From the NCBI GenBank assembly GCA_026016225.1, contig CP061210.1, positions 194,000-257,999 of the forward strand: DNA of 64,000 bases, given 5' to 3'. The notes under the pieces were generated by a model. The model worked only from the letters and a program-made list of their open reading frames with translations, ran no database searches and had not been told where the DNA came from. Shown here piece after piece: positions 13,402 through 43,822 of the stretch. Position 1 is the first letter of the stretch. Each line of letters starts with the position of its first letter. This stretch comes from Candidatus Nealsonbacteria bacterium (GTDB lineage: Bacteria; Patescibacteriota; Minisyncoccia; Minisyncoccales; JANBVM01). Both the position numbers and the translations under genes were made by a program.

Positions 13402-14448
13402 TTATTTTGCTGGTAGCCAAACAATCAAATTTTCCTTTGTTTCAAACTTCCCATTAATAAATTTTTCAATTACCCAGATATTAGTTTTACAGTGACTTGT
13501 GATTTCTGAAACTGTAATCTGGGATTTTTTAGGAGATAAGGCTAAGTAGGCTAAAATTTGGTCACCTAAATGTTTATCCAGACAAGCTTTGCTTTTTTCT
13601 TCTTTTAATAATTCCAAAGCTGCTTCTTTACCAACATCTTCTGCTCTTTTTCCCAATTTCCCAAAATTATCAGTTCCAATAATCGTGTTTTCAAATTCGG
13701 CTATTAGAGAAATCTGACTGCCAGGACATTGGGGTTGATAATATTCTACTTTTTCCTCAATAGGCAATTTTAATTTCCCAAAAATTTCTCTTACCCCGGC
13801 AACTTGACGCTCTGCCACTTTTTTATTCCTTAATAATTCTGAAGCCCCGGAAATTACTGAAATTTTTTGAAGTTGACCTCTTTTAATTAAATGGAGTGGT
13901 TTTAATTTCGAAGGATAAATTTTCACCTCAACTTTTGCTCCACCTTCTGGATAGTAGCCTCTTTTTAAAATATTAATTTCTACTTTAACTCCCATTCTTT
14001 CTAATAATTTTAAAAAAACATATTGAAAATAATCAATAGTTGGTGAGAAAAAGGTATCGGTAGCACCACCATTGAAAGTAATTTTTATATATTTGGGAGT
14101 TTGCCCTGGGACTGTCGAATGGGCAAAAATAGAAGGAGGAATTAATGTTTGTAAAAGTAAAGTAATACTTCCTGCTGTTGGAATGTTAATTGAGATATGT
14201 TCTTGATAATTTGAGCCGGGATAGAATTTTATTTCAGTTGACCCTAAATAGTTGCCTTCCAATTTTCCATTACAAAAGTGGGCTAAAGCTTGAAGTCCTA
14301 AAAGATGCTGGTATCTCAAACCGGGCTTTGGTCTTTTTTTTCGAATATTAAAAACACGGCAATTTCTTTTAGTAATTGCTGCTAAAGCAGTTGCCACTCT
14401 CAATATAGCTCCACCGCCTTCATATTTTGAACCATCAAGTTCTAACAT
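13402..14448 (-). CDS. rtcA: RNA 3'-terminal phosphate cyclase
   Basis: 348 aa. MLELDGSKYEGGGAILRVATALAAIT..., RPKPGLRYQHL, and LLQTLIPP...GGATD are characteristic RtcA blocks. Confidence 0.8.
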   Translation of the reverse strand: MLELDGSKYEGGGAILRVATALAAITKRNCRVFNIRKKRPKPGLRYQHLLGLQALAHFCNGKLEGNYLGSTEIKFYPGSNYQEHISINIPTAGSITLLLQTLIPPSIFAHSTVPGQTPKYIKITFNGGATDTFFSPTIDYFQYVFLKLLERMGVKVEINILKRGYYPEGGAKVEVKIYPSKLKPLHLIKRGQLQKISVISGASELLRNKKVAERQVAGVREIFGKLKLPIEEKVEYYQPQCPGSQISLIAEFENTIIGTDNFGKLGKRAEDVGKEAALELLKEEKSKACLDKHLGDQILAYLALSPKKSQITVSEITSHCKTNIWVIEKFINGKFETKENLIVWLPAK

Positions 14449-24365: not shown

Positions 24366-24404
24366 TCTTTGATTTTAGCAGAAAAATTAGATAAGCTAAA
24401 ACTA

Positions 24405-25685
24405 ATGAGAAAAAATAGCAGAATTCCAGAATTTTTCAAGTTAAAGAGAAAAGGAAAAATCAAAATTGTAAAAAATTTCGCTAATTTAACTGATAAAGAA
24501 ATTAAAATAATTGAGAAAGGATTTTTAGAGCCAGAAATAAGAGATAAAATAATAGAAAACGTTATTGGGACATTTCCTCTTCCATACGCTATTGCTGTAA
24601 ACTTTTTAATTAACCAGAAAGATTATCTTGTGCCAATGGTTATTGAAGAACCTTCTGTAGTAGCTGCCGCTTGTTATGGAGCAAGATTAACAAGAGAAAG
24701 CGGGGGAATATTTGCCAAAAGTTTAGGAAATTTGATGATAGGTCAAATTTATATAATTGATCTAAAAAATCCTCAAAGAGCTAAAAAAAAGATATTAAAA
24801 GAAAAAAAAGAAATTTTAAAAATTGCCAATAGACAAAACCCCATTTTGACAGAATTGGGAGGAGGGGCAAAGGATTTAGAAACAAAAATATTTAAAAAAA
24901 CAAAAATCGGTCCAATTCTAAGAATTCATCTATTAATTGATACTAAAGATGCCATGGGAGCTAATACGGTGGATACGATGGTTGAACAAACAGCTCCCTT
25001 TATTGAAAAAATTATAGGCGAGAAAGTTCTTTTGAAAATAGTTTCCAATTTAGCTGAAAAAAGATTGGTGGAGGTAAAGACAATAGTAACAAAAAAAGCT
25101 TTAAAAAAAGAAGGTTTTCCTCCTGAAGAAACAATTCAAAAAATTGTCAAAGCTCAAGTTTTAGCCGAAACTGATATTTACCGGGCAGTGACTAATAATA
25201 AAGGAATTTTAAACGGGATGGGAGCAGTAGCTTTGGCTACTGGAAATGACTGGCGAGCGCTTGAAGCCGGAGCTCACGGTTTTGCAGCAAAATCAGGAAA
25301 ATATAAACCTCTGGCTGTCTGGAGAAAAAATAAAGAAGGAAATTTAACTGGCAAAATGACAGTTCCCATAGCAGTTGGTATAGTAGGAGGTATAACCCAG
25401 GTTCATCCAACAGCCAGAATTTCCTTAAAGATTTTAAAAGTAAAATCAGCTCAAGAATTAGCCCAGGTAATAGCTTCTGTAGGTTTGGTTCAAAATTTGG
25501 CAGCTTTAAGAGCTTTGGTTTCAGAAGGAATTCAGTCAGGCCATATGAAATTGCATGTCAGGAACATAGCCATGGCAGTGGGAGCTAAAGGGAAAACAGT
25601 TGATAAAATAGCTAAACAGATGGTTAAAGAGAAAAAAATCAACATTGAAAGAGCTAAGGAGATTTTTGAGCAATTTAAGAAATAA
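24405..25685 (+). CDS. mvaA: hydroxymethylglutaryl-CoA reductase, class II
   Basis: EEPSVVAAACYGARL, DAMGANTVDTM and GHMKLHVRN blocks fit a class II HMGR of about 426 aa. ATG 24405 (MRKNSRIPEFFKL) is preferred. The track start TTG 24369 is only 4 nt from the smpB start. Confidence 0.8.
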   Translation: MRKNSRIPEFFKLKRKGKIKIVKNFANLTDKEIKIIEKGFLEPEIRDKIIENVIGTFPLPYAIAVNFLINQKDYLVPMVIEEPSVVAAACYGARLTRESGGIFAKSLGNLMIGQIYIIDLKNPQRAKKKILKEKKEILKIANRQNPILTELGGGAKDLETKIFKKTKIGPILRIHLLIDTKDAMGANTVDTMVEQTAPFIEKIIGEKVLLKIVSNLAEKRLVEVKTIVTKKALKKEGFPPEETIQKIVKAQVLAETDIYRAVTNNKGILNGMGAVALATGNDWRALEAGAHGFAAKSGKYKPLAVWRKNKEGNLTGKMTVPIAVGIVGGITQVHPTARISLKILKVKSAQELAQVIASVGLVQNLAALRALVSEGIQSGHMKLHVRNIAMAVGAKGKTVDKIAKQMVKEKKINIERAKEIFEQFKK

Positions 25686-25689
25686 ATTT

Positions 25690-27291
25690 ATGGTGAGAAA
25701 AAAACTAATAAATTTAATTAAGAAATCAATAAAGAATCTTCAAAAAGAGGGAGTTTTTCCAAAATTTGATATTCTTGAAATTCAAATTGAACATCCGGAA
25801 AAGAGAATTTATGGTGATTATGCAACAAGTGTTGCTTTAAAAATTGGAAAAATTTTGAAAAAAAAGCCAATGGAAACAGCAGAAAATCTTAAATCTCAAA
25901 TTCTAAATCTCAAACCTGATTTATTAAAAAAGATTGAAGCAGTTAGACCAGGATTTATTAATTTTTTTCTTTCTGATAAATATCTACAAGAACAAGTCGG
26001 TAAAATTTTAAAAGAAAAAGAAAAGTTTGGGGAATTAAAAATAGGTAGAAATAAAAAAGTTCAGGTAGAATTTATTTCTGCTAATCCAACAGGACCTTTA
26101 ACTTTAGGAAATGGTCGAGGGGGATTTTGTGGAGATGTTTTAGCAAATGTTTTGACCAAAACAGGATACAAAGTAGAACGGGAATATTATATCAATGATA
26201 TTGGAGAACAAATAAAAAAATTAGGACACTCAGTTATCGGCGACCCCGAAGGAGTATATAAAGGTAAATATATTGATAATTTAAGAGGAAAGATAAAAGG
26301 AAATAATCCGTATGAGGTTGGACAGAAAGCAGCGAAAATTATTTTAAAAGAGATGATAAAACCTTCGGTTAAAAAAATGGGAATAAAATTTGATGTCTGG
26401 TTTTCGGAGAAAAGTTTAGAGAAGAATAAAGAGATAGATAAAGCCTTAAAATTGCTAAAAAAGAAGAAATTCACTTATGAAAAAGATGGGGCTTTATGGT
26501 TTAAATCAAGTAAATTTGGCGATGATAAAGATAGGGTTTTAGTAAGGTCAAACAATGAAAAAACCTATTTTGCTTCTGATATATCTTATTTAAAAAATAA
26601 ATTTAAGAGAAAATTTAATTATATTATTTATTTTTGGGGAGCTGACCATTATGGTTATGTTAACAGAATAAAAGCAGCAGCTGAAGCTTTAGGTTATAAA
26701 AAAGAGCAGGTGAAAATTATTATCATGCAGATGGTAAAACTTTTTAAGGGAGGCAAAGAGATTAGAATGTCTAAGAGAACAGGTACTTATGTTGTTTTAG
26801 ATGAATTAATTGATGAGGTAGGATTAGATGCAGCCAGGTTTTTCTTCTTAGAGAGAAATCCAGAAAGTCATTTGAATTTTGATTTGAGTTTAGCAAAAGA
26901 ACAATCAGAGAAAAACCCGGTTTATTATATTCAATATGCTCACGCCAGAATATGTAGCATTATGAGAAAGTTAAAAGTTAAAAGTTTAAAATTAAAAATT
27001 AAAAATCAGGATTTAAAACTATTAAGTCATCCAAGCGAATTAGCTTTAATTAAGCAACTCATTCGTTTTCCAGAAATTATTGAAGACACTGCAAAAGATT
27101 ATCAAGTACAAAGGATACCCCAATATGCTGTTGAGTTAGCTTCAGTCTTTCATCGATTTTATCGAGATTGTAAGGTAATAGTGGAAGATGATGATTTAAA
27201 GAAAGCAAGAATTTCTTTGATTACAGCCACTAAGATTGTCTTGAAAAATACTTTAGATTTAATGGGAATTTCAGCGCCAGAAAAGATGTAA
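25690..27291 (+). CDS. argS: arginyl-tRNA synthetase
   Basis: Class I signatures SANPTGPLTLGNGRG (HIGH-equivalent) and MSKRTG (KMSK), plus a C-terminal DALR-type anticodon-binding domain. ATG 25690 is preferred over the overlapping track start at 25645. Confidence 0.9.
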   Translation: MVRKKLINLIKKSIKNLQKEGVFPKFDILEIQIEHPEKRIYGDYATSVALKIGKILKKKPMETAENLKSQILNLKPDLLKKIEAVRPGFINFFLSDKYLQEQVGKILKEKEKFGELKIGRNKKVQVEFISANPTGPLTLGNGRGGFCGDVLANVLTKTGYKVEREYYINDIGEQIKKLGHSVIGDPEGVYKGKYIDNLRGKIKGNNPYEVGQKAAKIILKEMIKPSVKKMGIKFDVWFSEKSLEKNKEIDKALKLLKKKKFTYEKDGALWFKSSKFGDDKDRVLVRSNNEKTYFASDISYLKNKFKRKFNYIIYFWGADHYGYVNRIKAAAEALGYKKEQVKIIIMQMVKLFKGGKEIRMSKRTGTYVVLDELIDEVGLDAARFFFLERNPESHLNFDLSLAKEQSEKNPVYYIQYAHARICSIMRKLKVKSLKLKIKNQDLKLLSHPSELALIKQLIRFPEIIEDTAKDYQVQRIPQYAVELASVFHRFYRDCKVIVEDDDLKKARISLITATKIVLKNTLDLMGISAPEKM

Positions 27292-27413: not shown

Positions 27414-30400
27414 ATGAAAATTAATTTTCCAAAAACAGAAAAAAGAGTTCTGAAGTTTTGGAAAAAAAACAAAATATTTGGGAAAAGTTTAAAAAAGAGA
27501 AAAAATAGGCCAAGATTTGTTTTTTATGAAGGCCCACCTTATGCCAACGGTAGACCTGGTATTCATCATCTTTTAGCTCGTGCTTTTAAAGACATTATCT
27601 GTCGTTATAAAACCATGCAGGGATTTTTTGTTGCAAGAAAGGCTGGTTGGGATACTCATGGTTTACCTACTGAAATAGAAGCTGAGAAAAAATTAGGAAT
27701 TAAGAGTAAAAAAGAAATTAAGAAATTAGGTATTGAGAAGTTTATTAAAGAATGTAAAAGAAACGTTTTTACTTATAAAAAAGAATGGGAAGAATTTACT
27801 GAAAGAATTGGATATTGGCTTGATTTAAAAAATGCCTATATTACCTGTAGTAATAATTATATTGAATCAATCTGGTGGATTTTAAAAGAAGTTTATAAAA
27901 AAGGACTTTTATACCAAGACTTTAAAGTTGTTCATTATTGTCCAAGATGTGGAACTTCTCTTTCCACTCATGAGGTAGCTCAGGGCTACAAAAAAATAAA
28001 AGAACCTTCAATTTTCATAAAACTGAGGATAAAAAATTTAGAATTTAAGGGTTCTTACCTGTTGGTCTGGACAACAACACCCTGGACATTGCCGGGTAAT
28101 GTAGCTGTTGCTGTAAATCCTAATTTTACTTATGCAAAAGTAAAGATTGGTAATGAGTACTTAATATTAGCCAAAGACAGAATTTCAGCTTCTGGCATAA
28201 AAGGGGAGATTGTAGAAGAATTTAAAGGAAAGGATTTGATTGATTTAAGATATGAGGGTCTATATCCGATAGATTATGAGACTTCAAAGAATGCCTACAG
28301 AGTAATTTTAGGAGATTTCGTTTCTTTAGAAGAAGGGACAGGATTAGTTCATTTAGCTCCTGCTTTTGGAGAAGAAGACATGGAAGTGATTAGAACTCAG
28401 AATAAAAAACATAAAACTAAAAATATTCCTGAAATTCCGATTTTGTTAACAATTAACGAAGAAGGGAGATTTAATCTTAACGTTAAAAAATGGGCCGGAA
28501 TGTATTTTAAGGATGCCGACCCTTTAATAATTGAAGACTTAAAACAAAAAAACCTTTTATTCAAAGAGGAATTATGTGAACATGATTATCCTTTTTGTTG
28601 GAGATGCAAAAACCCTTTACTTTATTATGCAAAAAAGAGCTGGTTCATTAAGATGAAGAGAGTTAAGCAGGATTTAATTAAAAACAATAAAAAAATTAAT
28701 TGGGTTCCAGCTTATTTAAAAGAAGGCAGATTCGGAGAGTGGTTGAGAGAAGTTAAAGATTGGGCACTTTCTCGGGAAAGATATTGGGGGACTCCTTTAC
28801 CTGTTTGGAAATGCAAAACCTGTCTAAATTCAGAAGTTATAGGCGGTAAACAAGACCTTTTGAAACAAAAATTTAGTACCAATAAATATCTTATTTTACG
28901 GCATGGAGAAACAATTTATGTAGAAGGACTTAAAGAAATAATTTATTCTAAATCAGATAATTCTTCGCTTGGTTTAACGAAAAAAGGAAAAAAACAAATA
29001 AACACTTTAGCTAAAAAACTCAAAAAATCCAAGATTGATTTAATTTTTTCTTCAGATTATTTAAGGACAAGAAAAACTGCAGATATTATTGCTAAAGAAC
29101 TCGGTCTTAAAGTAAATTTTGATAGAAGATTGAGAGATATAAATTTAGGGATTTATAAAGGAAAAAGAAAAGAAGAACTTTATAAAGCTTTTTTAAACAT
29201 AAAAGAAAGGTTTTACAAAAAACCAAAAAACGGAGAAGATTGGTTGAGTTGCAGGAGAAGGATGATTAGTTTCATAAAAGAAATTGATAGAAAATATCAA
29301 AATCAAACCATTTTAATTATTAGCCATGGAGACCCCTTATGGATTTTGGAAGGAACTCTTAGGGGATTATCTCAGGAAGAATTTGTTAAACAAAAAATTC
29401 AGAAAAAAACAATAAAACCAGGAGAGCTAAGAAGAATCAGATTTAATTTATTGCCTCTTAACAAAAAAGGAGAATTTGATTTTCACAGGCCTTATATTGA
29501 TGAAGTGAAGTTTTCCTGCCAAAGATGTGGGGGTTTGATGGAAAGAGTTCCTGAACTAATTGATTGTTGGTTTGATTCAGGCTCAATGCCTTTTGCCCAA
29601 TACCACTATCCTTTTGAAAATAAAAAGATTATTGACCAAAGAAAGCAGTTTCCGGCAGATTTTATTTCAGAAGGAGTGGACCAGACCAGGGGTTGGTTTT
29701 ATACTCTACTTGCAATTTCTACTTTAGTTGGGAAAGGTCCAAGTTATAAAAATGTTGTTTCTTTAGGACATATTTTAGATGAAAAGGGTGAAAAAATGTC
29801 GAAATCAAAAGGAAATGTGGTTAACCCCTGGTATATTGCTGAAAAATATGGCGTAGATGCTGTCCGTTGGTACTTTTATACTGTCAATCAGCCAGGTGAT
29901 TCAAAATTATTTTCAGAAAAAGATGTACAAGAGCGTCTAAAAAAATTTATTATGAATTTCTGGAATTGTTTTTGTTTTTTCACAACATATATTCCTGTAA
30001 ACTATTCCCCGTTCTCTAATAGAAAAAGAAGCTTACCAAAAAGCAAAAACATTTTAGATAAGTGGATTATATCTAAGTTAAACAAACTAATTTTAGATAC
30101 AACAAAATTATTAGATAAATACGATATTACAGCTGCTGCTCGTTTACTTGAAAACTTTGTCGTTAATAATCTGTCTTTATGGTACATAAGAAGGTCAAGA
30201 AAAAGATTTCAAAGACCGGAAACAAAGAGAGAGTTAAAAGAAGCTTCCCAAACTTTGGGTTTTGTGCTTTTAACTTTAACTAAATTAACAGCTCCCTTTA
30301 TTCCTTTTTTGAGTGAAGCAATTTATCAAAAGGTTCAAGATTCAAGATTCAAGATTCAAGGTTTTAAAAGTGTTCATTTAGAAGACTGGCCGAAGATAGA

Positions 30401-30923
30401 AAAGAAAAAGATTAATAAAAAATTGAATAAAAAAATGGAAGAAGTTAGAAAGATAGTAGGTTTAGCTTTAGCTGAAAGAGTAAAGGCTGGTTTGAAAGTG
30501 AAACAACCTTTACAAGAATTAAAAATTAAGAATCAAGATTTAAGGAAAGAAAAAGAATTATTAGAACTGATTAAAGAAGAAGTTAATGTTAAGAAAATCA
30601 CCTTTGGTAAAACTTTAAAATTAGATACAAAAATTAGTCCTGAGTTAAAAAAAGAAGGTATCTTAAGAGAAGTTATTAGAAATTTGCAGCAAATGAGAAA
30701 AGAAGCCAGCTGTACTCCAAAAGATATTATCCTAATTCAGTTTAAGGGAGAAGAAAAGATTACTCGATTTTTATTAAAAAATAGAGAAGAAATTATTAGA
30801 AAAACAAAAGCAAAAGATTTGATAGAAAGTAAAAAAAGAAAATTTAAAATGGAAAAAGAGCTTGATATTGAGGGAGAAAAGTTAAAGTTATCTATTAAGA
30901 AAATTAGAAGGGCAAAAGTTTAA
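27414..30923 (+). CDS. ileS: isoleucyl-tRNA synthetase (type 2) with an inserted histidine-phosphatase domain
   Basis: 1169-aa uninterrupted ORF. PPYANGRPGIHHLLAR, the editing domain (WTTTPWTLPGN), KMSKSKGN, and zinc knuckles CKTC / CQRCGG. Residues ~491-685 carry His_Phos_1-type motifs (LRHGET, SSDYLRTRKTA, ISHGD). Confidence 0.9.
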   Translation: MKINFPKTEKRVLKFWKKNKIFGKSLKKRKNRPRFVFYEGPPYANGRPGIHHLLARAFKDIICRYKTMQGFFVARKAGWDTHGLPTEIEAEKKLGIKSKKEIKKLGIEKFIKECKRNVFTYKKEWEEFTERIGYWLDLKNAYITCSNNYIESIWWILKEVYKKGLLYQDFKVVHYCPRCGTSLSTHEVAQGYKKIKEPSIFIKLRIKNLEFKGSYLLVWTTTPWTLPGNVAVAVNPNFTYAKVKIGNEYLILAKDRISASGIKGEIVEEFKGKDLIDLRYEGLYPIDYETSKNAYRVILGDFVSLEEGTGLVHLAPAFGEEDMEVIRTQNKKHKTKNIPEIPILLTINEEGRFNLNVKKWAGMYFKDADPLIIEDLKQKNLLFKEELCEHDYPFCWRCKNPLLYYAKKSWFIKMKRVKQDLIKNNKKINWVPAYLKEGRFGEWLREVKDWALSRERYWGTPLPVWKCKTCLNSEVIGGKQDLLKQKFSTNKYLILRHGETIYVEGLKEIIYSKSDNSSLGLTKKGKKQINTLAKKLKKSKIDLIFSSDYLRTRKTADIIAKELGLKVNFDRRLRDINLGIYKGKRKEELYKAFLNIKERFYKKPKNGEDWLSCRRRMISFIKEIDRKYQNQTILIISHGDPLWILEGTLRGLSQEEFVKQKIQKKTIKPGELRRIRFNLLPLNKKGEFDFHRPYIDEVKFSCQRCGGLMERVPELIDCWFDSGSMPFAQYHYPFENKKIIDQRKQFPADFISEGVDQTRGWFYTLLAISTLVGKGPSYKNVVSLGHILDEKGEKMSKSKGNVVNPWYIAEKYGVDAVRWYFYTVNQPGDSKLFSEKDVQERLKKFIMNFWNCFCFFTTYIPVNYSPFSNRKRSLPKSKNILDKWIISKLNKLILDTTKLLDKYDITAAARLLENFVVNNLSLWYIRRSRKRFQRPETKRELKEASQTLGFVLLTLTKLTAPFIPFLSEAIYQKVQDSRFKIQGFKSVHLEDWPKIEKKKINKKLNKKMEEVRKIVGLALAERVKAGLKVKQPLQELKIKNQDLRKEKELLELIKEEVNVKKITFGKTLKLDTKISPELKKEGILREVIRNLQQMRKEASCTPKDIILIQFKGEEKITRFLLKNREEIIRKTKAKDLIESKKRKFKMEKELDIEGEKLKLSIKKIRRAKV
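30334..30361. repeat. heptanucleotide microsatellite inside ileS
   Basis: TTCAAGA x3 followed by TTCAAGG, preceded by AAGGTTC. Encodes VQDSRFKIQGFK. Confidence 0.8.
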
Positions 30924-33424: not shown

Positions 33425-34789
33425 ATGAAAGATTTTACTTCAAAAATTATATCTTTAGCTAAAAGGCGGGGATTTATTTTTCAGTCCTCGGAAATTTATG
33501 GTGGCTTTGCTTCAAGCTATGATTTTGGACCCCTGGGCGTTTTAATGAAAAATAATATTAAAAGGGTTTGGTGGGATGAGATGATTAAAAATCATGAAAA
33601 TATTGTTGGTCTAGATACAGCAATTTTAATGAATCCCAAAGTTTGGCAGGCTTCAGGTCATTTAACTGCTGGTTTTGCTGATTCATTACTAGAATGTAAA
33701 TCTTGTCATAAAAGGTTTAAAGAAGAAGAAATAAAAGAAAATCGTTGCCCAGAATGTGGAGGAGAATTAACTAATCCTAAAAAATTTAATTTAATGATGA
33801 AAACTTTTGTTGGTTCTGTAGAAGAGGAAGCTTCCACTACTTATTTGAGAGCAGAGACCTGCCAGGGGATTTATATGAATTTTGAAAACGTCTTAAAATC
33901 AATGAGGATGAAAATACCCTTTGGTATTGTCCAAATTGGGAAATCTTTCCGTAATGAAATCAATCCCAAAAATTTTATTTTTAGAACCCGGGAGTTTGAA
34001 CAAATGGAAATGCAATGGTTTTGTCACCCTAAAGAAGCTAATAAATGGTTTGAATTTTGGAAAAAGGAACGCATAGATTGGTATTCTAATTTAGGAATTA
34101 AAAAAGAAAGTTTGAGAGCTAAAGAAATTCCAGCTAAAGAAAGGGCTCATTACGCAAAAAGACAAGTGGACATTGAATATCGTTTTCCTTTTGGTTGGGG
34201 GGAAATTGAGGGAGTTCATAATCGGGGGGATTGGGACCTTTCCAATCATTCAAAATATAGCGGAAAAGACTTAAGGTATTTTGATGAAGAAACCAAGGAG
34301 AAATATTTTCCCCATATCATTGAAACCTCAATTGGGGTAGAAAGATATCTTTTTGCTTTTTTATGCAATGCTTATCAAGAAATAAAAGGAGGGAGAACAA
34401 AAACCACAAAAGCTACAAAAGAAGTTGAGATTTTACTGAAACTAAACAAAAAAATTGCTCCAATTAAAGTGGCGGTTTTGCCTTTAGTAAGAAATAAACC
34501 AGATTTAGTCAAGAAGGCAAAGCAAATTTACAAATTACTGAAAAATCATTTTGTTTGTCAGTATGATGAAACAGGTTCAATTGGGAGGAGATATCGGAGG
34601 ACAGACGAGATTGGAGTCGTTCTATCAGCAACGGTGGATTTCCAAACCTTAGGCGATAACACCGTAACTTTAAGAGATAGAGATACTATGATGCAAATAA
34701 GAGTTAAAACATCAGAATTAAAAGAGGTTATTAAAAAGATACTTTCAGGTGAAGAATTCTTAAAATTAGGAAAAATTATTAAAGGATAA
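33425..34789 (+). CDS. glyQS: glycyl-tRNA synthetase (dimeric GlyQS type)
   Basis: RRGFIFQSSEIYGGFASSYDFGPLG, class II motifs (FRNEINP..., GVERY) and a C-terminal anticodon-binding domain. Confidence 0.9.
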   Translation: MKDFTSKIISLAKRRGFIFQSSEIYGGFASSYDFGPLGVLMKNNIKRVWWDEMIKNHENIVGLDTAILMNPKVWQASGHLTAGFADSLLECKSCHKRFKEEEIKENRCPECGGELTNPKKFNLMMKTFVGSVEEEASTTYLRAETCQGIYMNFENVLKSMRMKIPFGIVQIGKSFRNEINPKNFIFRTREFEQMEMQWFCHPKEANKWFEFWKKERIDWYSNLGIKKESLRAKEIPAKERAHYAKRQVDIEYRFPFGWGEIEGVHNRGDWDLSNHSKYSGKDLRYFDEETKEKYFPHIIETSIGVERYLFAFLCNAYQEIKGGRTKTTKATKEVEILLKLNKKIAPIKVAVLPLVRNKPDLVKKAKQIYKLLKNHFVCQYDETGSIGRRYRRTDEIGVVLSATVDFQTLGDNTVTLRDRDTMMQIRVKTSELKEVIKKILSGEEFLKLGKIIKG

Positions 34790-37096: not shown

Positions 37097-38581
37097 ATGG
37101 CAAAAAAGAAATTTTATATTACAACCAGTATAGCTTATACTAATGCTCCTCCACATATAGGTTTTGCTTTGGAAGTTATTCAGGCTGATGTTTTAGCACG
37201 TTATCACCGGTTTTTAGGTGAGGATGTTTTTTTTCTGACGGGAACTGATGAACATGGTACAAAAATTGCAAAGGCAGCTTGTGAAGCAGGAAAGAAACCA
37301 AGAGAATTTGTTGATGATATTTCAAAAAAATTTCAGAACCTAAAAACAGTTTTAAATTTATCCAATGATGATTTTATTCGAACCACTGATGAAAAGCGAC
37401 ATCGACCGGCAGTAGAAAAAGTTTGGCGAAAGTTAAAAGAAAATAACGATATTTATAAAAAGAAATATCGAGGATTGTATTGTGTGGGTTGTGAGTCTTT
37501 TATTTCCAAAAAAGATTTGGTAGACGGAAAATGTCCCTATCATCAAAAGAAACCCGAAGTAATTAAAGAAGAAAATTACTTTTTTAAACTTTCAAAATAT
37601 TCAAAAAAGATTGGAAAGATTATAGAAAGAGATGAGATAAAGATTATTTCCAAAGCAAGAAAAAATGAAATTTTAAGCTTAATTAAACAGGGAATAGAAG
37701 ATATAAGTTGCTCCAGATTAAAAGAAAGATTACTATGGGGAATACCGGTCCCCGATGATAATACCCAGACAATTTATGTCTGGGTAGAGGCTTTAATTAA
37801 TTATATTTCGGCTTTAGGATATGCCAAAGAAGGTAATAAATTTAAAAAATTTTGGCCGGCTGATATTCACTGTATAGGAAAAGATATAATCAAATTTCAT
37901 TCTCTATTATGGCCAGCCATATTAATTTCCCTTGATTTAGAATTACCGAAAACAATATTTATTCATGGTTTTATTACGGTTGGTGGCCAGAAAATGTCAA
38001 AAAGTTTAGGAACTTTTATTGATCCCTTTGAACTTGTCAAACAATATGGAGCAGATGCTATTAGGTATTTCCTTTTAAGAGAGATTCTTCCCACCGAAGA
38101 CGGTGATTTTACTTATGAGAAACTGGAAGATAGGTATAATGCAGATTTGGCAAAAGGAATTGGGAATTTGGTGTCCAGAGTACTTACTTTGGCAGAGAAA
38201 TCTGGATTTAAATTAGAAAGTCTAAAGATTAAGCAAATTCAAGATAGTGAATTCCAAACAGAAATAGATAAAACCTGGCAAAAACATAATAAAGCTTTGA
38301 ATGAATTTAAATTTAATACAGCCTTAATTTCCATTTGGGAACTGATTGCTTTTTGTGACCAATACATTGAAAAAGAGAAACTCTGGGAGAAGAAAGGACA
38401 AAAAGAAGATATCTTATATTTACTGTATACCCTGGAAAATATTGCCCGGATGCTGAAACCTTTTATACCAGAGACATCAGAAAAAATATTATGTCAACTT
38501 GGAATAAAATCTAATGACAAAGAATATGTTTTTAATGTAGAAAAAAAAGAACCCCTTTTTCCAAAATTAAATTCTAAATAA
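37097..38581 (+). CDS. metG: methionyl-tRNA synthetase
   Basis: TSIAYTNAPPHIGFA (HIGH-type), zinc knuckles CVGCESF / CPYH, and KMSKSLGT. Confidence 0.9.
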   Translation: MAKKKFYITTSIAYTNAPPHIGFALEVIQADVLARYHRFLGEDVFFLTGTDEHGTKIAKAACEAGKKPREFVDDISKKFQNLKTVLNLSNDDFIRTTDEKRHRPAVEKVWRKLKENNDIYKKKYRGLYCVGCESFISKKDLVDGKCPYHQKKPEVIKEENYFFKLSKYSKKIGKIIERDEIKIISKARKNEILSLIKQGIEDISCSRLKERLLWGIPVPDDNTQTIYVWVEALINYISALGYAKEGNKFKKFWPADIHCIGKDIIKFHSLLWPAILISLDLELPKTIFIHGFITVGGQKMSKSLGTFIDPFELVKQYGADAIRYFLLREILPTEDGDFTYEKLEDRYNADLAKGIGNLVSRVLTLAEKSGFKLESLKIKQIQDSEFQTEIDKTWQKHNKALNEFKFNTALISIWELIAFCDQYIEKEKLWEKKGQKEDILYLLYTLENIARMLKPFIPETSEKILCQLGIKSNDKEYVFNVEKKEPLFPKLNSK

Positions 38582-41425: not shown

Positions 41426-43822
41426 ATGAAATATGGACCCCAAAAAATAGAGCCAAAATGGCAGAAGTTTTGGGAGGGAAATGGTTTTTATCAAGCTAAG
41501 GACTTCTCAAAAAAACCAAAAAAATATATTCTCATTGAGTTTCCCTATCCTTCAGGTCAAGGGCTTCATGTAGGTCATTGTAGAAGCTATTCTGCAATGG
41601 ATGCAATAGCCAGAAAAAAAAGAATGGAAGGTTTTAATGTTTTATTCCCAATAGGTTGGGATGCTTTTGGTTTACCAACAGAAAATTATGCTATTAAAAC
41701 AGGAATTCATCCTGAAATAGCTACTGAGAAAAACGTAAATAACTATAAAAGGCAATCAAAAAGCTTGGGTTTTTCTTTTGATTGGAATAGAGAAATTAAT
41801 ACTACTGACCCAAAATACTATAAATGGACTCAGTGGATTTTTTTAAAGCTTTTTGAAAATGGATTAGCATATCAGGCTAAAATTCCTATTAACTGGTGTC
41901 CTTCTTGTAAGATTGGACTAGCGAACGAAGAAGTAGTTGATGGAAAATGTGAAAGATGTAAGGCAAAAGTAACTCAAAAAGAACTCAAACAATGGATGTT
42001 AAAAATTACAGAATATGCTGACAGATTAATTGAGGATTTAGACAAGGTTGATTATTTAGAAAAAATAAAAGTTCAACAGATTGATTGGATTGGTAGAAGT
42101 TACGGCGTAGATATAGATTTTAGAGTAGAGAATTTAGATAAAGTGATTAAAGTTTTTACTACTAGGGCTGATACTATTTTTGGAGTAACAGCAATTGTTA
42201 TAGCCCCCGAGCATTCTCTGGTTGAAAAATTGGTTGCCAAAGAGCACTTAATTGAAGTTAAAAAGTATATTAAGGAATCACGAGAGAAATCAGAGTTTGA
42301 GAGGACAAAATTAGAAAAAGAAAAAACAGGAGTATTTACAGGAGGTTTTTGTATAAACCCCGTTAATAACGAGAAGATTCCTATTTGGATTGGAGATTAT
42401 GTGGTAGCAACTTATGGAGGAGGAGCTGTGATGGTTGTTCCTGCTCATGATAAAAGAGATTATGATTTTGCAAAACGTTATGGATTAGAAATTAGAGAAG
42501 TTATTAAAGGCGGAGATATTTCAAAAGAAGCCTTTATTGAATACGGAACTTTAGTTAATTCAGGTCCATTTAATGGTTTATCTTCAAAAGAAGCAATTGA
42601 GAGAATTACAGAATGGTTAGAAAAAAATAATCTTGGTAAAAAAAGAGTTCAGTATAAACTAAGAGATTGGGTCTTTTCACGCCAGCATTATTGGGGAGAA
42701 CCAATACCAATTATTCACTGTAAAAAGTGCGGTGTAGTGCCAGTACCTGAGAAAGATTTGCCGGTTGAACTCCCTTATGTTGAAAGATATCAACCAACTG
42801 AGACAGGTGAATCACCTTTGGCTGCTGTTGCTGATTGGGTGAATGTAAAATGTCCTAAATGCGGGAGTAAAGCCAAAAGAGAAACAGATACCATGCCAAA
42901 CTGGGCAGGCTCAAATTGGTATTATTTAAGATATTGCGACCCAAAGAATGAAAAAGAGATAGTTGATAGAAAGAAGGCAGAATACTGGATGCCGGTTGAC
43001 TGGTACAATGGTGGCATGGAACACACAACCTTGCATTTATTGTATTCTCGCTTTATTTACAAATTTCTTTTTGATATTGGAATAGTTCCCCAGCCAGAGC
43101 CCTATCAAAAAAGAACCTCTCATGGGATGGTTTTGGCTGAAGATGGTCGTAAGATGTCAAAGTCTTTTGGTAATGTGATAAACCCTGATGATATTGTAGC
43201 AAATTATGGTGCTGATACTCTCAGGGTTTACGAAATGTTTATGGGTCCTTTTGACCAGACTATTAGCTGGAGCAGTAAAGGAGTAAAAGGAGTTCACAGA
43301 TTTTTAAACAGGGTCTGGAAGCTGGTTTTAGAATGTTCTGAGAATAAAAAGAGTGGCAAAGAAGCTGTAAAAGAAGTTCATAAATTAAATAGAAAAGTAG
43401 AAGAGGATTTAGAAGCTACAAAATTTAATACGGCCGTTGCAGCTTTTATGGAATTTATTAACTATTGTTATAAAAACAAAAAAGATGTTGGAAAAGATGT
43501 AATACAAAGAATGTTAATTTTATTAGCTCCTTTTGCTCCTCATATTAGTGAAGAACTTTGGCAGTACTTAGGAAACAAAGGTTCAGTTCATGAGCAATCT
43601 TGGCCTAAATACGACTCAAAATTAGTCAAAGAAAAAACTATTACTCTTATTATTCAAATAAATGGCAAGGTTCGGGATAAGGTTGAGGTTAAAGCAGACA
43701 TTTCTGAAGAGGAAGCTAAAGAATTGACATTAAATAGAGAGAAGATTAAAAAAAGAATATATAACAAAAAGATTAAAAAGATTATTTTTGTTCCGGGAAA
43801 ATTAATTAATATAGTTATATAA
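41426..43822 (+). CDS. leuS: leucyl-tRNA synthetase
   Basis: FPYPSGQGLHVGHCRSY (HIGH), the CP1 editing domain (TTRADTIFGVTA), and KMSKSFGN. Confidence 0.95.
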   Translation: MKYGPQKIEPKWQKFWEGNGFYQAKDFSKKPKKYILIEFPYPSGQGLHVGHCRSYSAMDAIARKKRMEGFNVLFPIGWDAFGLPTENYAIKTGIHPEIATEKNVNNYKRQSKSLGFSFDWNREINTTDPKYYKWTQWIFLKLFENGLAYQAKIPINWCPSCKIGLANEEVVDGKCERCKAKVTQKELKQWMLKITEYADRLIEDLDKVDYLEKIKVQQIDWIGRSYGVDIDFRVENLDKVIKVFTTRADTIFGVTAIVIAPEHSLVEKLVAKEHLIEVKKYIKESREKSEFERTKLEKEKTGVFTGGFCINPVNNEKIPIWIGDYVVATYGGGAVMVVPAHDKRDYDFAKRYGLEIREVIKGGDISKEAFIEYGTLVNSGPFNGLSSKEAIERITEWLEKNNLGKKRVQYKLRDWVFSRQHYWGEPIPIIHCKKCGVVPVPEKDLPVELPYVERYQPTETGESPLAAVADWVNVKCPKCGSKAKRETDTMPNWAGSNWYYLRYCDPKNEKEIVDRKKAEYWMPVDWYNGGMEHTTLHLLYSRFIYKFLFDIGIVPQPEPYQKRTSHGMVLAEDGRKMSKSFGNVINPDDIVANYGADTLRVYEMFMGPFDQTISWSSKGVKGVHRFLNRVWKLVLECSENKKSGKEAVKEVHKLNRKVEEDLEATKFNTAVAAFMEFINYCYKNKKDVGKDVIQRMLILLAPFAPHISEELWQYLGNKGSVHEQSWPKYDSKLVKEKTITLIIQINGKVRDKVEVKADISEEEAKELTLNREKIKKRIYNKKIKKIIFVPGKLINIVI

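What the first reader, a model, noticed from the sequence alone, without database searches (positions are those of the whole stretch)
28884..29480. Apparently intact histidine-phosphatase (PGAM-like) domain nested inside the catalytic core of IleRS
The 1169-aa ileS ORF is uninterrupted. Residues ~491-685 carry the branch-1 histidine-phosphatase signature set: KYLILRHGETIY, SSDYLRTRKTADIIA, LRDINLGIYKG and ILIISHGDPLWIL (RHG, second Arg, distal His). The block sits between the first zinc-knuckle segment (WKCKTC...SEVIGG) and FHRPYIDEVKFSCQRCGG. As I recall, canonical type-2 IleRS (for example Thermus) joins these two segments with only a short linker; this needs an alignment to confirm. A phosphatase domain is therefore nested in the KMSKS-proximal zinc module of an essential synthetase. 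I know of no described IleRS with this architecture. Possible roles are inference only. It might hydrolyse a phosphorylated by-product or dinucleotide polyphosphate made by the synthetase. It might process tRNA 3'-end phosphates coupled to charging (an RtcA cyclase is encoded at 13402-14448). It might protect against an Ile-AMP mimic.
Basis: partly seen in the sequence, partly recalled or inferred. Interest (0 to 1): 0.85.

Follow-up and report, generated by a model that had tools for sequence, protein, structure and literature searches.

The report
Phosphatase domain nested inside isoleucyl-tRNA synthetase
An essential protein-synthesis enzyme of a tiny uncultivated (CPR/Nealsonbacteria) bacterium carries a complete, apparently working phosphatase enzyme spliced into one of its surface loops, an arrangement that is standard in hundreds of related species, has arisen repeatedly, and seems never to have been described or explained.

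Summary
**Observation: confirmed.** ORF 27414-30923 (1169 aa) is a complete IleRS. A whole branch-1 histidine phosphatase (Pfam His_Phos_1, E=2e-34, aa ~485-686) replaces a ~10-residue linker of Thermus IleRS. It sits between the two CxxC halves of the CP3 zinc knuckle.

**Not an artefact.** All 120 best IleRS homologues and the 80 best GTDB species loci have it. R496, H497, R551, H638 and an acidic residue at 575 are conserved throughout. AlphaFold models a confident globule on an intact synthetase.

**New findings:**
- In relatives the same phosphatase is a separate gene directly upstream of an insert-less ileS (7 of 7 examined).
- It is nested in two divergent IleRS subtypes, and at two further IleRS loops.
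- A distinct phosphatase clade sits in the homologous loop of ValRS in Gracilibacteria/Peregrinibacteria, in 1-4 copies.

**Interpretation.** Most likely an active phosphomonoesterase kept in 1:1 association with the synthetase. The substrate is unknown. My leading guess, with low confidence, is a blocking phosphate on the tRNA 3' end. Alternatives are phosphate on the synthetase itself, or a small molecule.

I found no paper describing this. It is a new variant of a known kind (multi-domain synthetases).

The parts
27414..30923 (+). ileS: complete isoleucyl-tRNA synthetase (type 2, 1169 aa) with a nested phosphatase
   Evidence: ORF. TIGR00392 ileS scores 916 bits against a cut-off of 621, in two stretches. 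Best solved relatives are T. thermophilus 1ile and P. megaterium IleRS2 8c8v. AF2 mean pLDDT 87.6, pTM 0.80.
27558..27569 (+). Class I signature motif in its non-canonical form, GIHH (aa 49-52)
   Evidence: Read directly from the sequence. G49, H51 and H52 are nearly invariant in 120 homologues. G/AXHH in IleRS2 is linked experimentally to mupirocin hyper-resistance (PMC10485003).
28752..28790 (+). CP2-CP3 linker VKDWALSRERYWG (aa 447-459)
   Evidence: Equivalent to yeast IleRS 453-ARDWNVSRNRYWG-465, which lines the tRNA CCA-end / reveromycin pocket (PMC7955072). It lies ~25 residues upstream of the insert.
28812..28823 (+). First CxxC half of the CP3 zinc knuckle (C467, C470)
   Evidence: Invariant in 120 fused homologues. 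Aligns to the Tth IleRS segment just before the linker. The Tth CP3 holds a zinc motif (PMC7191050).
28866..29471 (+). Nested histidine phosphatase module (aa 485-686; Pfam core aa 493-664 = 28890-29405)
   Evidence: PF00300 E=2.4e-34. Aligns end to end with free-standing ~190-aa phosphatases. AF2 alone gives pLDDT 90.3, pTM 0.87. Foldseek TM 0.72-0.77 to PspA, GpgP, PhoE and CobC.
28899..28907 (+). RHG motif: R496, H497 (predicted phospho-accepting nucleophile), G498
   Evidence: R and H are invariant in 120/120 fused proteins and kept in 70/70 GTDB species loci.
29064..29066 (+). Second catalytic Arg, R551 (RTxxTA motif)
   Evidence: Invariant 120/120.
29136..29138 (+). Predicted proton donor D575 (Glu in most branch-1 enzymes)
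   Evidence: Aligns to E of PhoE 'LREIHLG'. D 66 / E 54 among 120 fused proteins.
29325..29327 (+). Distal catalytic His, H638 (SHG motif)
   Evidence: Invariant 120/120.
29439..29483 (+). Fusion-specific return linker (aa 676-690; consensus F-K-x-L-P-Y-N-E-K-G-E-L-D-F)
   Evidence: Conserved in fused proteins (P681 in 115/120, D689 in 113/120). Absent from free-standing proteins, which end at GELRKL. pLDDT 92-94.
29517..29528 (+). Second CxxC half of the CP3 zinc knuckle (C702, C705)
   Evidence: Invariant in 120 fused homologues. Aligns to Tth 'LAC-ACGG'.
29793..29807 (+). KMSKS loop (aa 794-798)
   Evidence: All five residues invariant in 120 homologues.

Best explanation
**What it is.** The window encodes the organism's working type-2 IleRS. 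A complete PhoE/CobC/PspA-like branch-1 histidine phosphatase has been inserted into its CP3 subdomain, between the two halves of a zinc knuckle.

**Shown.**
- The synthetase motifs are all intact: GIHH, KMSKS, the editing-site TTTPWT and the four zinc Cys.
- The phosphatase is a separate, confidently folded globule joined by short, conserved, well-ordered linkers.
- Its full catalytic set (R496, H497, R551, D/E575, H638) is maintained in every homologue examined.
- The same phosphatase is either nested in IleRS or encoded as a separate gene abutting the start of an insert-less ileS.
- Nesting has happened repeatedly: in two IleRS subtypes, at three IleRS loops, and independently in ValRS.

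**Inferred.** It is an active phosphomonoesterase selected to stay in 1:1 physical association with a class Ia synthetase, acting as an extra active site on that enzyme.

**Committed mechanism (a guess, about 0.3 on its own).** It removes a blocking phosphate (2'/3'-phosphate, or pyrophosphate) from the terminal A76 of tRNA bound to the synthetase. This frees the acceptor ribose for aminoacylation and stops dead-end tRNA from sequestering the enzyme.

**Sub-confidences.** Architecture real and lineage-wide: 0.97. Phosphatase catalytically active: 0.8. Functionally coupled to the synthetase rather than hitch-hiking: 0.7. The overall 0.5 is for 'an active phosphatase functionally coupled to IleRS, substrate unresolved'.
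For: **Real and intact.**

**Lineage-wide.**
- All 120 best IleRS hits (59-93% identity, 1027-1233 aa) carry PF00133 + PF00300.
- 516 GTDB species genomes hold relatives. The best 80 loci all cover both junctions, and 68 complete ORFs have a median length of 1169 aa.

**Selection on catalysis.** R496, H497, R551 and H638 are invariant and position 575 is always D/E, while the mean pairwise identity of the insert is only ~50%.

**Fold.** Full-length pLDDT is 87.6, with the insert at 93-96 and the linkers at 92-94. The insert alone gives pLDDT 90.3.

**Coupling to the synthetase.**
- 7 of 7 free-standing homologues lie immediately upstream of an insert-less ileS on the same strand. Gaps are -11 to +129 nt, including 4- and 11-nt overlaps, although other neighbours vary.
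- Those IleRS partners belong to at least 3 divergent lineages (43-60% core identity).
- Of the 80 embedded copies among the 149 closest representative clusters with a scored phosphatase domain (150 listed), nearly all could be mapped onto IleRS, and about 70 of them at this same site. Further sites lie at 734|748 and 859|878.
- ValRS of Gracilibacteria/Peregrinibacteria carries an independent clade of the domain, mostly in the homologous loop after WGHRIPVWY, in 1-4 copies.
- In the window, LeuRS, MetRS, ArgRS, HisRS and one further class II synthetase have no such domain.

**For a tRNA-end substrate (weak).**
- The insert follows the CP2-3 linker that lines the CCA-end pocket by ~25 residues (PMC7955072).
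- The module is about twice as basic as its host core: +9 against +4.4 net charge per 100 aa.
- From memory, not verified here: the E. coli CCA-adding enzyme carries an HD-domain phosphatase / 2',3'-cyclic phosphodiesterase, which would be a precedent for phosphate removal by a tRNA-3'-end enzyme.
Against: - No substrate was tested, and none can be inferred from sequence. The nearest solved structures are all small-molecule phosphatases at 21-27% identity. Every NCBIfam equivalog is far below its cut-off.
- A repair enzyme tied to one synthetase would serve only tRNA-Ile (or tRNA-Val), which is hard to rationalise.
- LeuRS, which also translocates the CCA end, lacks the domain in this genome.
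- Insert-less ValRS relatives have no phosphatase nearby, so the function is dispensable in that lineage.
- Gene order around ileS (smpB-argS-ileS-recO) is broadly conserved in this group, so part of the adjacency signal could be inherited synteny.
- The tools gave no coordinates, so the distance and orientation of H497 relative to the synthetic site, editing site or KMSKS loop are unknown.
- The free-standing genes were chosen by similarity to the insert. I did not test whether every insert-less Paceibacteria ileS has such a neighbour.
Confidence: 0.5

Rival explanations
1. Built-in self-protection. The phosphatase removes phosphate from the synthetase itself, for example from the serine of the KMSKS loop. 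This would reverse inactivation by a HipA/HipT-like toxin kinase and make the enzyme immune in cis.
For: - It would explain why the domain is tied to one particular synthetase per lineage: IleRS in Paceibacteria and ValRS in Gracilibacteria/Peregrinibacteria.
- It would explain why the domain is accessory in ValRS, present in 70 of 120 close relatives.
- It would fit the copy-number expansion to 2-4 copies and the several tolerated insertion sites around the catalytic body.
- A degenerate tandem paralogue exists in L013.
- ileS is a mosaic divergence hot spot between two otherwise 98.8%-identical genomes.
- The enzyme carries the antibiotic-associated GXHH motif, so IleRS here has a history of being targeted.
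- From established knowledge: HipA phosphorylates GltX and HipT phosphorylates TrpS in or near the KMSKS-type motif, and the histidine phosphatase superfamily includes protein phosphatases (SixA, PGAM5, Sts-1).
Against: - No kinase that targets IleRS or ValRS is known, and none was looked for here because only 64 kb is available.
- The closest structural relatives are small-molecule enzymes with capped active sites, not protein phosphatases.
- There is no PADLOC match.
- The mosaic pattern rests on one genome pair and shows ordinary purifying selection (omega ~0.23).
Confidence: 0.15
2. Small-molecule role at the synthetase. The phosphatase hydrolyses a soluble phosphorylated compound whose local concentration matters to IleRS/ValRS. 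Candidates are an inhibitory nucleotide (3'-AMP, 2'-AMP or a similar product of RNA scavenging that competes for the A76/adenine pockets), a phosphorylated inhibitor, or a reaction product such as PPi.
For: - Nearest folds and profile matches are small-molecule phosphomonoesterases (PspA, GpgP, PhoE, CobC, riboflavin-pathway HFP) at TM 0.72-0.77.
- The domain keeps the cap segments typical of that group.
- Tethering at several different loops fits a proximity effect better than a precise geometric hand-over.
Against: - No known natural IleRS or ValRS inhibitor carries a phosphomonoester (my own knowledge).
- PPi and AMP are made by all twenty synthetases, yet only IleRS carries the domain among the six synthetase genes seen in the window.
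- The linkers are predicted to be rigid.
Confidence: 0.2
3. Hitch-hiking housekeeping enzyme. The phosphatase does an unrelated cellular job (for example a phosphoglycerate-mutase-like or phosphoserine-phosphatase-like step). It merely shares an operon with ileS and was captured into a permissive loop. The fusion is neutral and hard to undo.
For: - CP3 is the most variable, peripheral part of IleRS (PMC7191050), so insertions there should be tolerated.
- Synteny around ileS is conserved in this group anyway.
- An adjacent upstream gene is a plausible source for a local rearrangement.
- Conservation of the catalytic residues would be expected for any needed enzyme.
- Some sources name the free-standing proteins 'putative phosphoglycerate mutase' or 'PhoE'.
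Against: - Independent nesting in ValRS occurred in another lineage where insert-less relatives have no adjacent phosphatase.
- Nesting occurred in two IleRS subtypes and at three IleRS loops.
- The embedded close relatives that could be mapped are in IleRS or ValRS, not in random proteins.
- Insertions of other genes occur on either side of the phosphatase-ileS pair but never between them.
- dPGM, CobC and PspA equivalog scores are 2-4 fold below their cut-offs.
Confidence: 0.13
4. Artefact or dead relic. The insert is an assembly chimera, or a decayed domain that now serves only as a structural spacer.
For: None beyond the prior unusualness of the architecture.
Against: - The same junctions occur in more than 100 independent assemblies from NCBI, JGI, ENA and Logan, including complete genomes.
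- GC content shows no clear break at the junctions: it is slightly lower in the insert (0.25-0.30 against 0.30-0.36 in the flanks), within the range seen elsewhere in this window.
- All catalytic residues are invariant despite ~50% sequence divergence.
- The one paralogue that has lost the nucleophile His (L013 ileS-2) has also lost the synthetase motifs. That shows what decay looks like, and the window's gene does not look like that.
Confidence: 0.02

Closest known systems
Type-2 isoleucyl-tRNA synthetase (IleRS2), e.g. T. thermophilus 1ILE and P. megaterium 8C8U/8C8V, including the G/AXHH 'hyper-resistant' subgroup
   Same: - Full-length homology: 901 and 825 bits; TM 0.83-0.91 normalised to the target.
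- CP3 zinc knuckle as in Thermus.
- Type-2 C-terminal domains (PF19302).
- GIHH signature as in D. radiodurans and S. griseus IleRS2.
   Different: About 200 extra residues forming an independent enzyme domain inside CP3. None of the solved IleRS has this, and none of the IleRS papers I read mentions it.
Small branch-1 histidine phosphatases: PhoE (1H2E), phosphoserine phosphatase PspA (4IJ5), alpha-ribazole phosphatase CobC (6NRU), glucosyl-3-phosphoglycerate phosphatase Rv2419c (4PZ9)
   Same: - Same fold (TM 0.70-0.77), same size (~190-210 aa) and same catalytic residues.
- PhoE-like 'LRE/D-x-x-x-G-x-[WYF]-x-G' cap motif.
   Different: - Only 21-27% identity, and below every curated family cut-off.
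- Asp instead of Glu as proton donor in about half the members.
- Strongly basic.
- Nested in, or translationally coupled to, a tRNA synthetase instead of a metabolic operon.
Bifunctional RNase H / acid phosphatase of actinobacteria (Rv2228c type; NCBIfam NF005567)
   Same: A CobC/PhoE-like histidine phosphatase covalently joined to an enzyme that acts on nucleic acid. The insert scores 72-76 bits against this family's model. As I recall, the reason for that fusion is also unexplained.
   Different: That one is an end-to-end fusion, not a nested insertion. The partner enzyme is different. The score is far below the cut-off (326).
Other synthetases with extra catalytic or accessory modules: the CP1 editing domain, the LeuRS leucine-specific domain, and NCBIfam NF040702 'isoleucine--tRNA ligase, N-acetyltransferase domain-containing'
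   Same: The principle that class Ia synthetases grow by inserting whole domains into connective-peptide loops. An IleRS with a second enzymatic domain (GNAT) is already curated.
   Different: - The domain family is different (phosphatase).
- NF040702 scores 313 against a cut-off of 1999, so this protein is not a member.
- No curated model or paper covers the phosphatase form.
E. coli CCA-adding enzyme HD domain (phosphatase / 2',3'-cyclic phosphodiesterase) - from memory, not verified here
   Same: An enzyme that handles the tRNA 3' end and carries its own phosphate-removing domain. This is the functional analogy behind my leading mechanism.
   Different: Unrelated fold (HD metal-dependent rather than histidine phosphatase), a terminal rather than nested domain, and it acts on all tRNAs.

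Membership tests
Histidine phosphatase superfamily, branch 1 (Pfam PF00300) | Profile match above the curated threshold | tested here: met
   119-124 bits against a cut-off of 21.7, covering profile positions 2-173 of 194.
Histidine phosphatase superfamily, branch 1 (Pfam PF00300) | RHG motif with the nucleophilic His, a second Arg and a distal His forming the phosphate pocket | tested here: met
   R496, H497, R551 and H638 are present and invariant in 120/120 fused homologues and kept in 70/70 species loci.
Histidine phosphatase superfamily, branch 1 (Pfam PF00300) | Acidic proton donor (normally Glu) | tested here: met
   D575 aligns with the Glu of PhoE and PspA. The position is D (66) or E (54) and never anything else. 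Asp is a conservative variant; whether it is competent was not tested.
Histidine phosphatase superfamily, branch 1 (Pfam PF00300) | Alpha/beta fold of the family | tested here: met
   AF2 pLDDT 90.3. Foldseek E down to 2e-14 and TM 0.70-0.77 to PspA, GpgP, PhoE, CobC and dPGM.
Histidine phosphatase superfamily, branch 1 (Pfam PF00300) | Phosphatase (or mutase) activity via a phospho-histidine intermediate | not testable with these tools
   Requires biochemistry.
Cofactor-dependent phosphoglycerate mutase (NCBIfam NF038349, TIGR01258 and other dPGM equivalogs) | Score above the equivalog cut-off | tested here: not met
   Best is 93.5 bits against 225 (NF038349); TIGR01258 scores 24 against 81.7. 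The cap motif is PhoE-like (LRDINLGIYKG), not the dPGM 'ERHYG' type.
Alpha-ribazole phosphatase CobC (TIGR03162) / phosphoserine phosphatase PspA (NF045917) | Score above the equivalog cut-off | tested here: not met
   83.5 against 162.9, and 78 against 350.
Isoleucyl-tRNA synthetase (TIGR00392) | Equivalog score over the whole protein | tested here: met
   916 bits against 621, in two stretches that flank the insert.
Isoleucyl-tRNA synthetase (TIGR00392) | Class I signature motifs and the editing site | tested here: met
   GIHH (a functional G/AXHH variant, PMC10485003), KMSKS 794-798 and TTTPWT 220-225 are conserved or invariant in 120 homologues.
Isoleucyl-tRNA synthetase (TIGR00392) | It is the cell's only / functional IleRS and charges tRNA-Ile | not testable with these tools
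   Only 64 kb is available and there is no second ileS in it. A near-identical gene sits at the same place in a 694,748-bp Nealsonbacteria contig (accession CP179891.1), but I could not scan that whole genome.
Acquired mupirocin-resistance IleRS MupA / MupB (NF000257 / NF000258) | Score above the 'exception' cut-off | tested here: not met
   870 and 834 bits against 1900.
IleRS with GNAT domain (NF040702) | Score above the cut-off / presence of an acetyltransferase domain | tested here: not met
   313 bits against 1999. No acetyltransferase Pfam hit.
Intein or other self-splicing / homing in-frame element | Hint/intein splicing blocks or a homing endonuclease domain | tested here: not met
   Pfam finds only His_Phos_1 in aa 481-700. 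The insert aligns end to end with ordinary free-standing phosphatases.
Known anti-phage defence components (PADLOC-DB) | Match to any defence-system protein model | tested here: not met
   No meaningful hit for the insert, a free-standing homologue or the L013 paralogue.

The most novel reading that the evidence does not exclude
The nested phosphatase is a third catalytic centre of class Ia synthetases that serves as built-in immunity or repair against phosphate-based attack on translation. The attack would be either a toxin-installed phosphate or pyrophosphate on the tRNA 3' end, or kinase phosphorylation of the synthetase's own KMSKS loop.

On this reading, several observations are footprints of an arms race centred on IleRS/ValRS in CPR bacteria:
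- recurrent independent nestings (two IleRS subtypes, three IleRS loops, ValRS);
- tandem expansion to 2-4 copies;
- repeated switching between nested and free-standing forms;
- a decayed tandem paralogue;
- the GXHH antibiotic-resistance motif;
- the mosaic ileS.
Probability: 0.25. Interest if true: 0.9.

Novelty: new variant of a known kind. Interest (0 to 1): 0.7.

Why it matters
Aminoacyl-tRNA synthetases are among the best-studied enzymes. Each extra domain they carry has in the past revealed a new function, such as editing, tRNA binding or signalling.

Here a second, apparently active enzyme of a completely different chemistry is built into the essential IleRS of hundreds of CPR species, and independently into ValRS of another CPR branch. 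Evolution has re-created the link many times: as a nested domain, in tandem arrays, or as a translationally coupled neighbour gene. That implies a phosphate-removal step needed right at the synthetase, which current models of tRNA charging do not include.

Identifying the substrate could uncover one of the following:
- a new kind of tRNA or synthetase damage and its repair;
- a new toxin-immunity axis in these symbiotic bacteria;
- a new mode of regulating translation.

It is directly testable with recombinant protein. Practically, it also explains why annotation pipelines label these genes only as 'class I tRNA ligase family protein'.

Tried and rejected
1. **Assembly chimera.** Rejected. The same junctions occur in more than 100 independent assemblies and in complete genomes.
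2. **'Short' architectures** with the phosphatase at ~aa 260 (P0258, P0329, P0274, P0376). I first thought these lacked the editing domain. Reading the sequences shows they are N-terminally truncated gene calls.
3. **Relic of an IleRS N-terminal fragment** upstream of the free-standing phosphatase genes, which would have supported a fission-by-replacement scenario. No tblastn hit better than E=0.4.
4. **dN/dS of the insert** using the closest genome. Uninformative, because the insert differs at only 4 nucleotides. Species-level pairs are 82% identical or less, so dS is saturated. I rely on invariance of the catalytic residues instead.
5. **A free-standing phosphatase next to insert-less valS.** Not found in 3 of 3 loci.
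6. **Link to known defence systems.** None. The PHROG hit is to a family of unknown function.
7. **A second phosphatase copy in the window.** None.
8. **RtcA linkage.** The gene is real, but it is 13 kb away on the opposite strand and absent from the conserved neighbourhood in related loci.
9. **AFDB fold search** to see the UniProt annotation. The library was unavailable.
10. **Model coordinates.** The tools return none, so I could not measure where the phosphatase pocket points.
11. **Literature.** Ten searches found no description of the architecture.


Full report
The + strand ORF 27414..30923 is uninterrupted and encodes 1169 aa. It is an isoleucyl-tRNA synthetase: NCBIfam TIGR00392 gives 916 bits against a cut-off of 621, but in two stretches. 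Between them, Pfam His_Phos_1 (PF00300) matches aa 493-664 at E=2.4e-34. Against T. thermophilus IleRS (1ile), query 4-483 aligns to Tth 9-477 and query 687-1026 to Tth 487-820. About 203 residues therefore stand where Thermus has a ~10-residue linker, between the CxxC halves C467/C470 and C702/C705. GC content shows no clear break at the junctions, though it is slightly lower in the insert (0.25-0.30 against 0.30-0.36 in the flanks), within the range seen elsewhere in this window.

**2. Where exactly it sits.** Published IleRS structures place the Thermus zinc motif in the CP3 subdomain. CP3 is a peripheral connective-peptide element whose topology differs in each solved IleRS (PMC7191050). 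The CP2-CP3 linker just upstream (yeast 453-ARDWNVSRNRYWG-465; here VKDWALSRERYWG, aa 447-459) lines the pocket that holds the tRNA CCA end (PMC7955072). 'Nested in the catalytic core, KMSKS-proximal' is thus only loosely right. The insert is in a variable surface module of the catalytic domain, ~25 residues after a CCA-pocket element and ~110 residues before KMSKS.

**3. It is a folded, conserved enzyme domain on an intact synthetase.**
- AlphaFold2 on a 120-sequence alignment gives mean pLDDT 87.6 and pTM 0.80. The insert scores 93-96 except for a lid at ~500-520 (71-75), and the two linkers score 92-94.
- The model superposes on P. megaterium IleRS2 and Thermus IleRS (TM 0.83-0.91 on the target).
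- The insert alone models at pLDDT 90.3. It resembles PspA, GpgP (Rv2419c), PhoE and CobC at TM 0.70-0.77 and 21-27% identity.
- In 120 fused homologues R496, H497, R551, H638, E608 and R616 are invariant, and position 575 is D (66) or E (54). The four zinc Cys, KMSKS and the editing-site TTTPWT are also invariant.
- The same holds in 70 species-level genome loci, although the inserts average only ~50% pairwise identity.
- No curated phosphatase subfamily (dPGM, CobC, PspA, GpmB, SixA) is reached.

**4. It is the norm in a large lineage, not a curiosity or a chimera.**
- All 120 best IleRS homologues (59-93% identity, 1027-1233 aa; Nealsonbacteria, Paceibacterales/-ota, Parcubacteria, Patescibacteria) carry PF00133 + PF00300.
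- A scan of one genome per GTDB species found 516 loci with a relative. The best 80 all span both junctions, and 68 complete ORFs have a median length of 1169 aa.
- The closest relative (93%) lies in the same gene order on a 694,748-bp Nealsonbacteria contig.
- An exhaustive search with the insert alone listed the 150 closest representative clusters. A phosphatase domain could be scored in 149 of them: 80 embedded in larger proteins and 69 free-standing.

**5. The same phosphatase also exists as a separate gene glued to ileS.**
- The free-standing ~190-aa proteins align with the insert from their first to their last residue.
- All seven I looked up lie immediately upstream of an insert-less ileS (931-1020 aa) on the same strand. 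The gaps are 129, 4, -11, 11, 12, -4 and 37 nt. Genes elsewhere in the neighbourhood differ (a DGR cassette, a transposase, Pterin_4a, CYTH/Metallophos), but nothing ever separates the pair.
- Locus L001 has the window's exact synteny (smpB-argS-[phosphatase]-ileS-recO-DUF11-class II aaRS-M16), with the phosphatase outside ileS instead of inside it.
- These insert-less enzymes have only a 20-30-residue linker at the site.

**6. Phosphatase and synthetase histories disagree.**
- Fused IleRS cores are on average 69% identical to each other. The unfused partners are 60% (L001, L091) or only 43-47% identical to them. Yet their phosphatases are up to 53-68% identical to nested ones, inside the range of nested copies (mean 50%, minimum 32%).
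- A neighbour-joining tree needs about 6 fused/free changes, against ~79 for shuffled labels.
- Among fused proteins, two deeply different IleRS subtypes (PPTANGxPGIHH like the window; PPFATGLPHYGH with 47-53% core identity) both carry the domain at the same CP3 site.
- Either ileS has been replaced around a retained phosphatase, or the domain has moved in and out several times. No relic IleRS fragment lies upstream of the free genes.

**7. Nesting has recurred at other places and in another synthetase.**
- Mapping flanks onto the window protein puts about 70 embedded copies at site A (477-484 | 685-688).
- P0355 and P0367 have a copy at 734|748, between HYPFEN and FPADFISEG. P0309 has a second copy at 859|878, before the anticodon-binding domain. 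These multi-copy IleRS forms are singletons on short contigs and need confirmation.
- P0278 proved to be a ValRS. A follow-up search showed that 70 of its 120 closest ValRS relatives carry the domain (Gracilibacteria, Peregrinibacteria; contigs up to 1.37 Mb). Copy numbers are 57 single, 11 double, one triple and one quadruple.
- The ValRS copies lie mostly right after WGHRIPVWY, the loop homologous to IleRS site A. Nine lie at a second site after PQWFVMVNKEF.
- The ValRS inserts are a separate clade: 27% identical to IleRS inserts, and 82 of 82 have another ValRS insert as nearest neighbour.
- Three insert-less ValRS relatives have no phosphatase within 5 kb.
- In the window itself, LeuRS, MetRS, ArgRS, HisRS and another class II synthetase lack the domain.

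**8. What it most likely does.**
- *Shown:* an intact synthetase; an intact, conserved, separately folded phosphatase; repeated, host-specific physical or genetic coupling.
- *Inferred:* the phosphatase is active, and selection favours keeping it at the synthetase in 1:1 stoichiometry.
- *The substrate is not determinable from sequence.* The nearest structures are small-molecule phosphomonoesterases.
- *Leading guess (~0.3):* removal of a blocking phosphate from the acceptor end of synthetase-bound tRNA. Three weak points favour it. The insert is close in sequence to the CCA-pocket linker. The module is about twice as basic as its host core. And, from memory, the CCA-adding enzyme carries its own phosphatase domain. 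The main objections are that this would serve only one tRNA species and that LeuRS lacks the domain.
- *Rival, self-dephosphorylation* (~0.15): reversal of KMSKS phosphorylation by a Hip-like kinase. It would explain the host specificity, the patchiness, the copy expansions, the decayed paralogue and the signs that IleRS is under attack. No such kinase is known.
- *Rival, small-molecule role at the active site* (~0.2).
- *Rival, neutral hitch-hiking of a housekeeping enzyme* (~0.13). The independent ValRS events argue against it.
- *Rival, artefact or dead relic* (~0.02).

**9. Comparison with what is known.** The host is an IleRS2 of the G/AXHH group (PMC10485003). The guest is a member of the histidine phosphatase superfamily branch 1, but of no curated subfamily. 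Synthetases are known to grow by domain insertion (CP1 editing, the LeuRS-specific domain), and NCBI curates an IleRS with a GNAT domain. An RNase H-CobC fusion exists in actinobacteria. None of these is the same thing. Ten full-text searches found no description, and a 2026 preprint on IleRS domain evolution does not mention a phosphatase or CPR. I therefore rate it a new variant of a known kind: present in databases, apparently unrecognised.

**10. Limits.**
- No model coordinates were available, so the orientation of the phosphatase pocket is unknown.
- Trees are neighbour-joining on ~185 columns.
- The free-standing genes were picked by similarity to the insert, so '7 of 7 adjacent' is not an unbiased estimate for all Paceibacteria.
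- The mosaic-gene observation rests on one genome pair.
- Several precedents are cited from memory and marked as such.

Noticed in passing
window 27558-27569 (aa 49-52 of IleRS): The class I 'HIGH' signature reads GIHH, with the first and third positions swapped. This non-canonical G/AXHH motif of IleRS2 was shown experimentally to raise the mupirocin Ki up to ~1000-fold (PMC10485003). It is nearly invariant in the 120 fused homologues.
   Followed up: partly
window 17413-40923 compared with L094 (CP179891.1, 694,748-bp Nealsonbacteria contig): The two genomes are 98.8% identical over 23.5 kb, yet 216 of the 283 differences fall inside ileS (61.5 per kb against 3.3 per kb outside). They are concentrated in aa 1-150 (68-76% nucleotide identity) and aa 801-900. 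The phosphatase insert differs at only 4 bases. Omega is ~0.23, so this looks like recombination with a divergent allele, i.e. a mosaic gene. This rests on one pair only.
   Followed up: partly
L013 4639-8181 and 8200-11229: Two tandem ileS genes. The first (1180 aa) is intact with an intact nested phosphatase. The second (1009 aa) has no editing domain, a degenerate HIGH region and no KMSKS, and its nested phosphatase has lost the nucleophile His (LRPGQ). It looks like a pseudo-synthetase/pseudo-phosphatase paralogue.
   Followed up: partly
proteins P0278 and P0390-P0507 (ValRS of Gracilibacteria/Peregrinibacteria): 70 of 120 related ValRS carry 1-4 nested His_Phos_1 domains. Most lie in the loop homologous to the IleRS site, right after WGHRIPVWY. 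A second site follows PQWFVMVNKEF. These inserts form their own clade.
   Followed up: partly
proteins P0355, P0367, P0309 (IleRS from metagenomes): Phosphatase copies occur at two other IleRS loops, equivalent to window aa 734|748 and 859|878. P0355 has up to three copies in one protein. The multi-copy forms are singletons on 5-8 kb contigs.
   Followed up: partly
window 13402-14448 (-): RNA 3'-terminal phosphate cyclase RtcA is confirmed (PF01137, 246 bits). It is 13 kb from ileS on the other strand and is not part of the conserved ileS neighbourhood.
   Followed up: partly
window 25645-27291, 27414-30923, 33425-34789, 37097-38581, 41426-43822, 59931-61259: Six aminoacyl-tRNA synthetase genes lie in 64 kb: ArgRS, IleRS, a class II enzyme of the G/H/P/S/T group, MetRS, LeuRS and HisRS. 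Only IleRS carries an extra domain.
   Followed up: no
window 24369-25685 (+): An HMG-CoA reductase (PF00368, 356 bits) lies between smpB and argS, overlapping the listed argS ORF by ~40 nt. It suggests a mevalonate-pathway step in a genome-reduced CPR bacterium.
   Followed up: no
L086 4597-5959: A diversity-generating-retroelement-like pair (bAvd + reverse transcriptase RVT_1) sits directly upstream of the free-standing phosphatase-ileS pair in one relative.
   Followed up: no
L084 9564-10067; L087 9552-10612: In two relatives with the free-standing phosphatase, ileS is followed by a small calcineurin-type metallophosphoesterase. In L087 a CYTH (triphosphate tunnel) protein is there as well. 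So further phosphoesterases cluster at this locus.
   Followed up: no
window 28866-29471, and the free-standing homologues: The phosphatase module is unusually basic. The median is +9 net charge per 100 aa (pI 9.85) when nested and +12 when free-standing, against +4.4 for the host synthetase core.
   Followed up: partly
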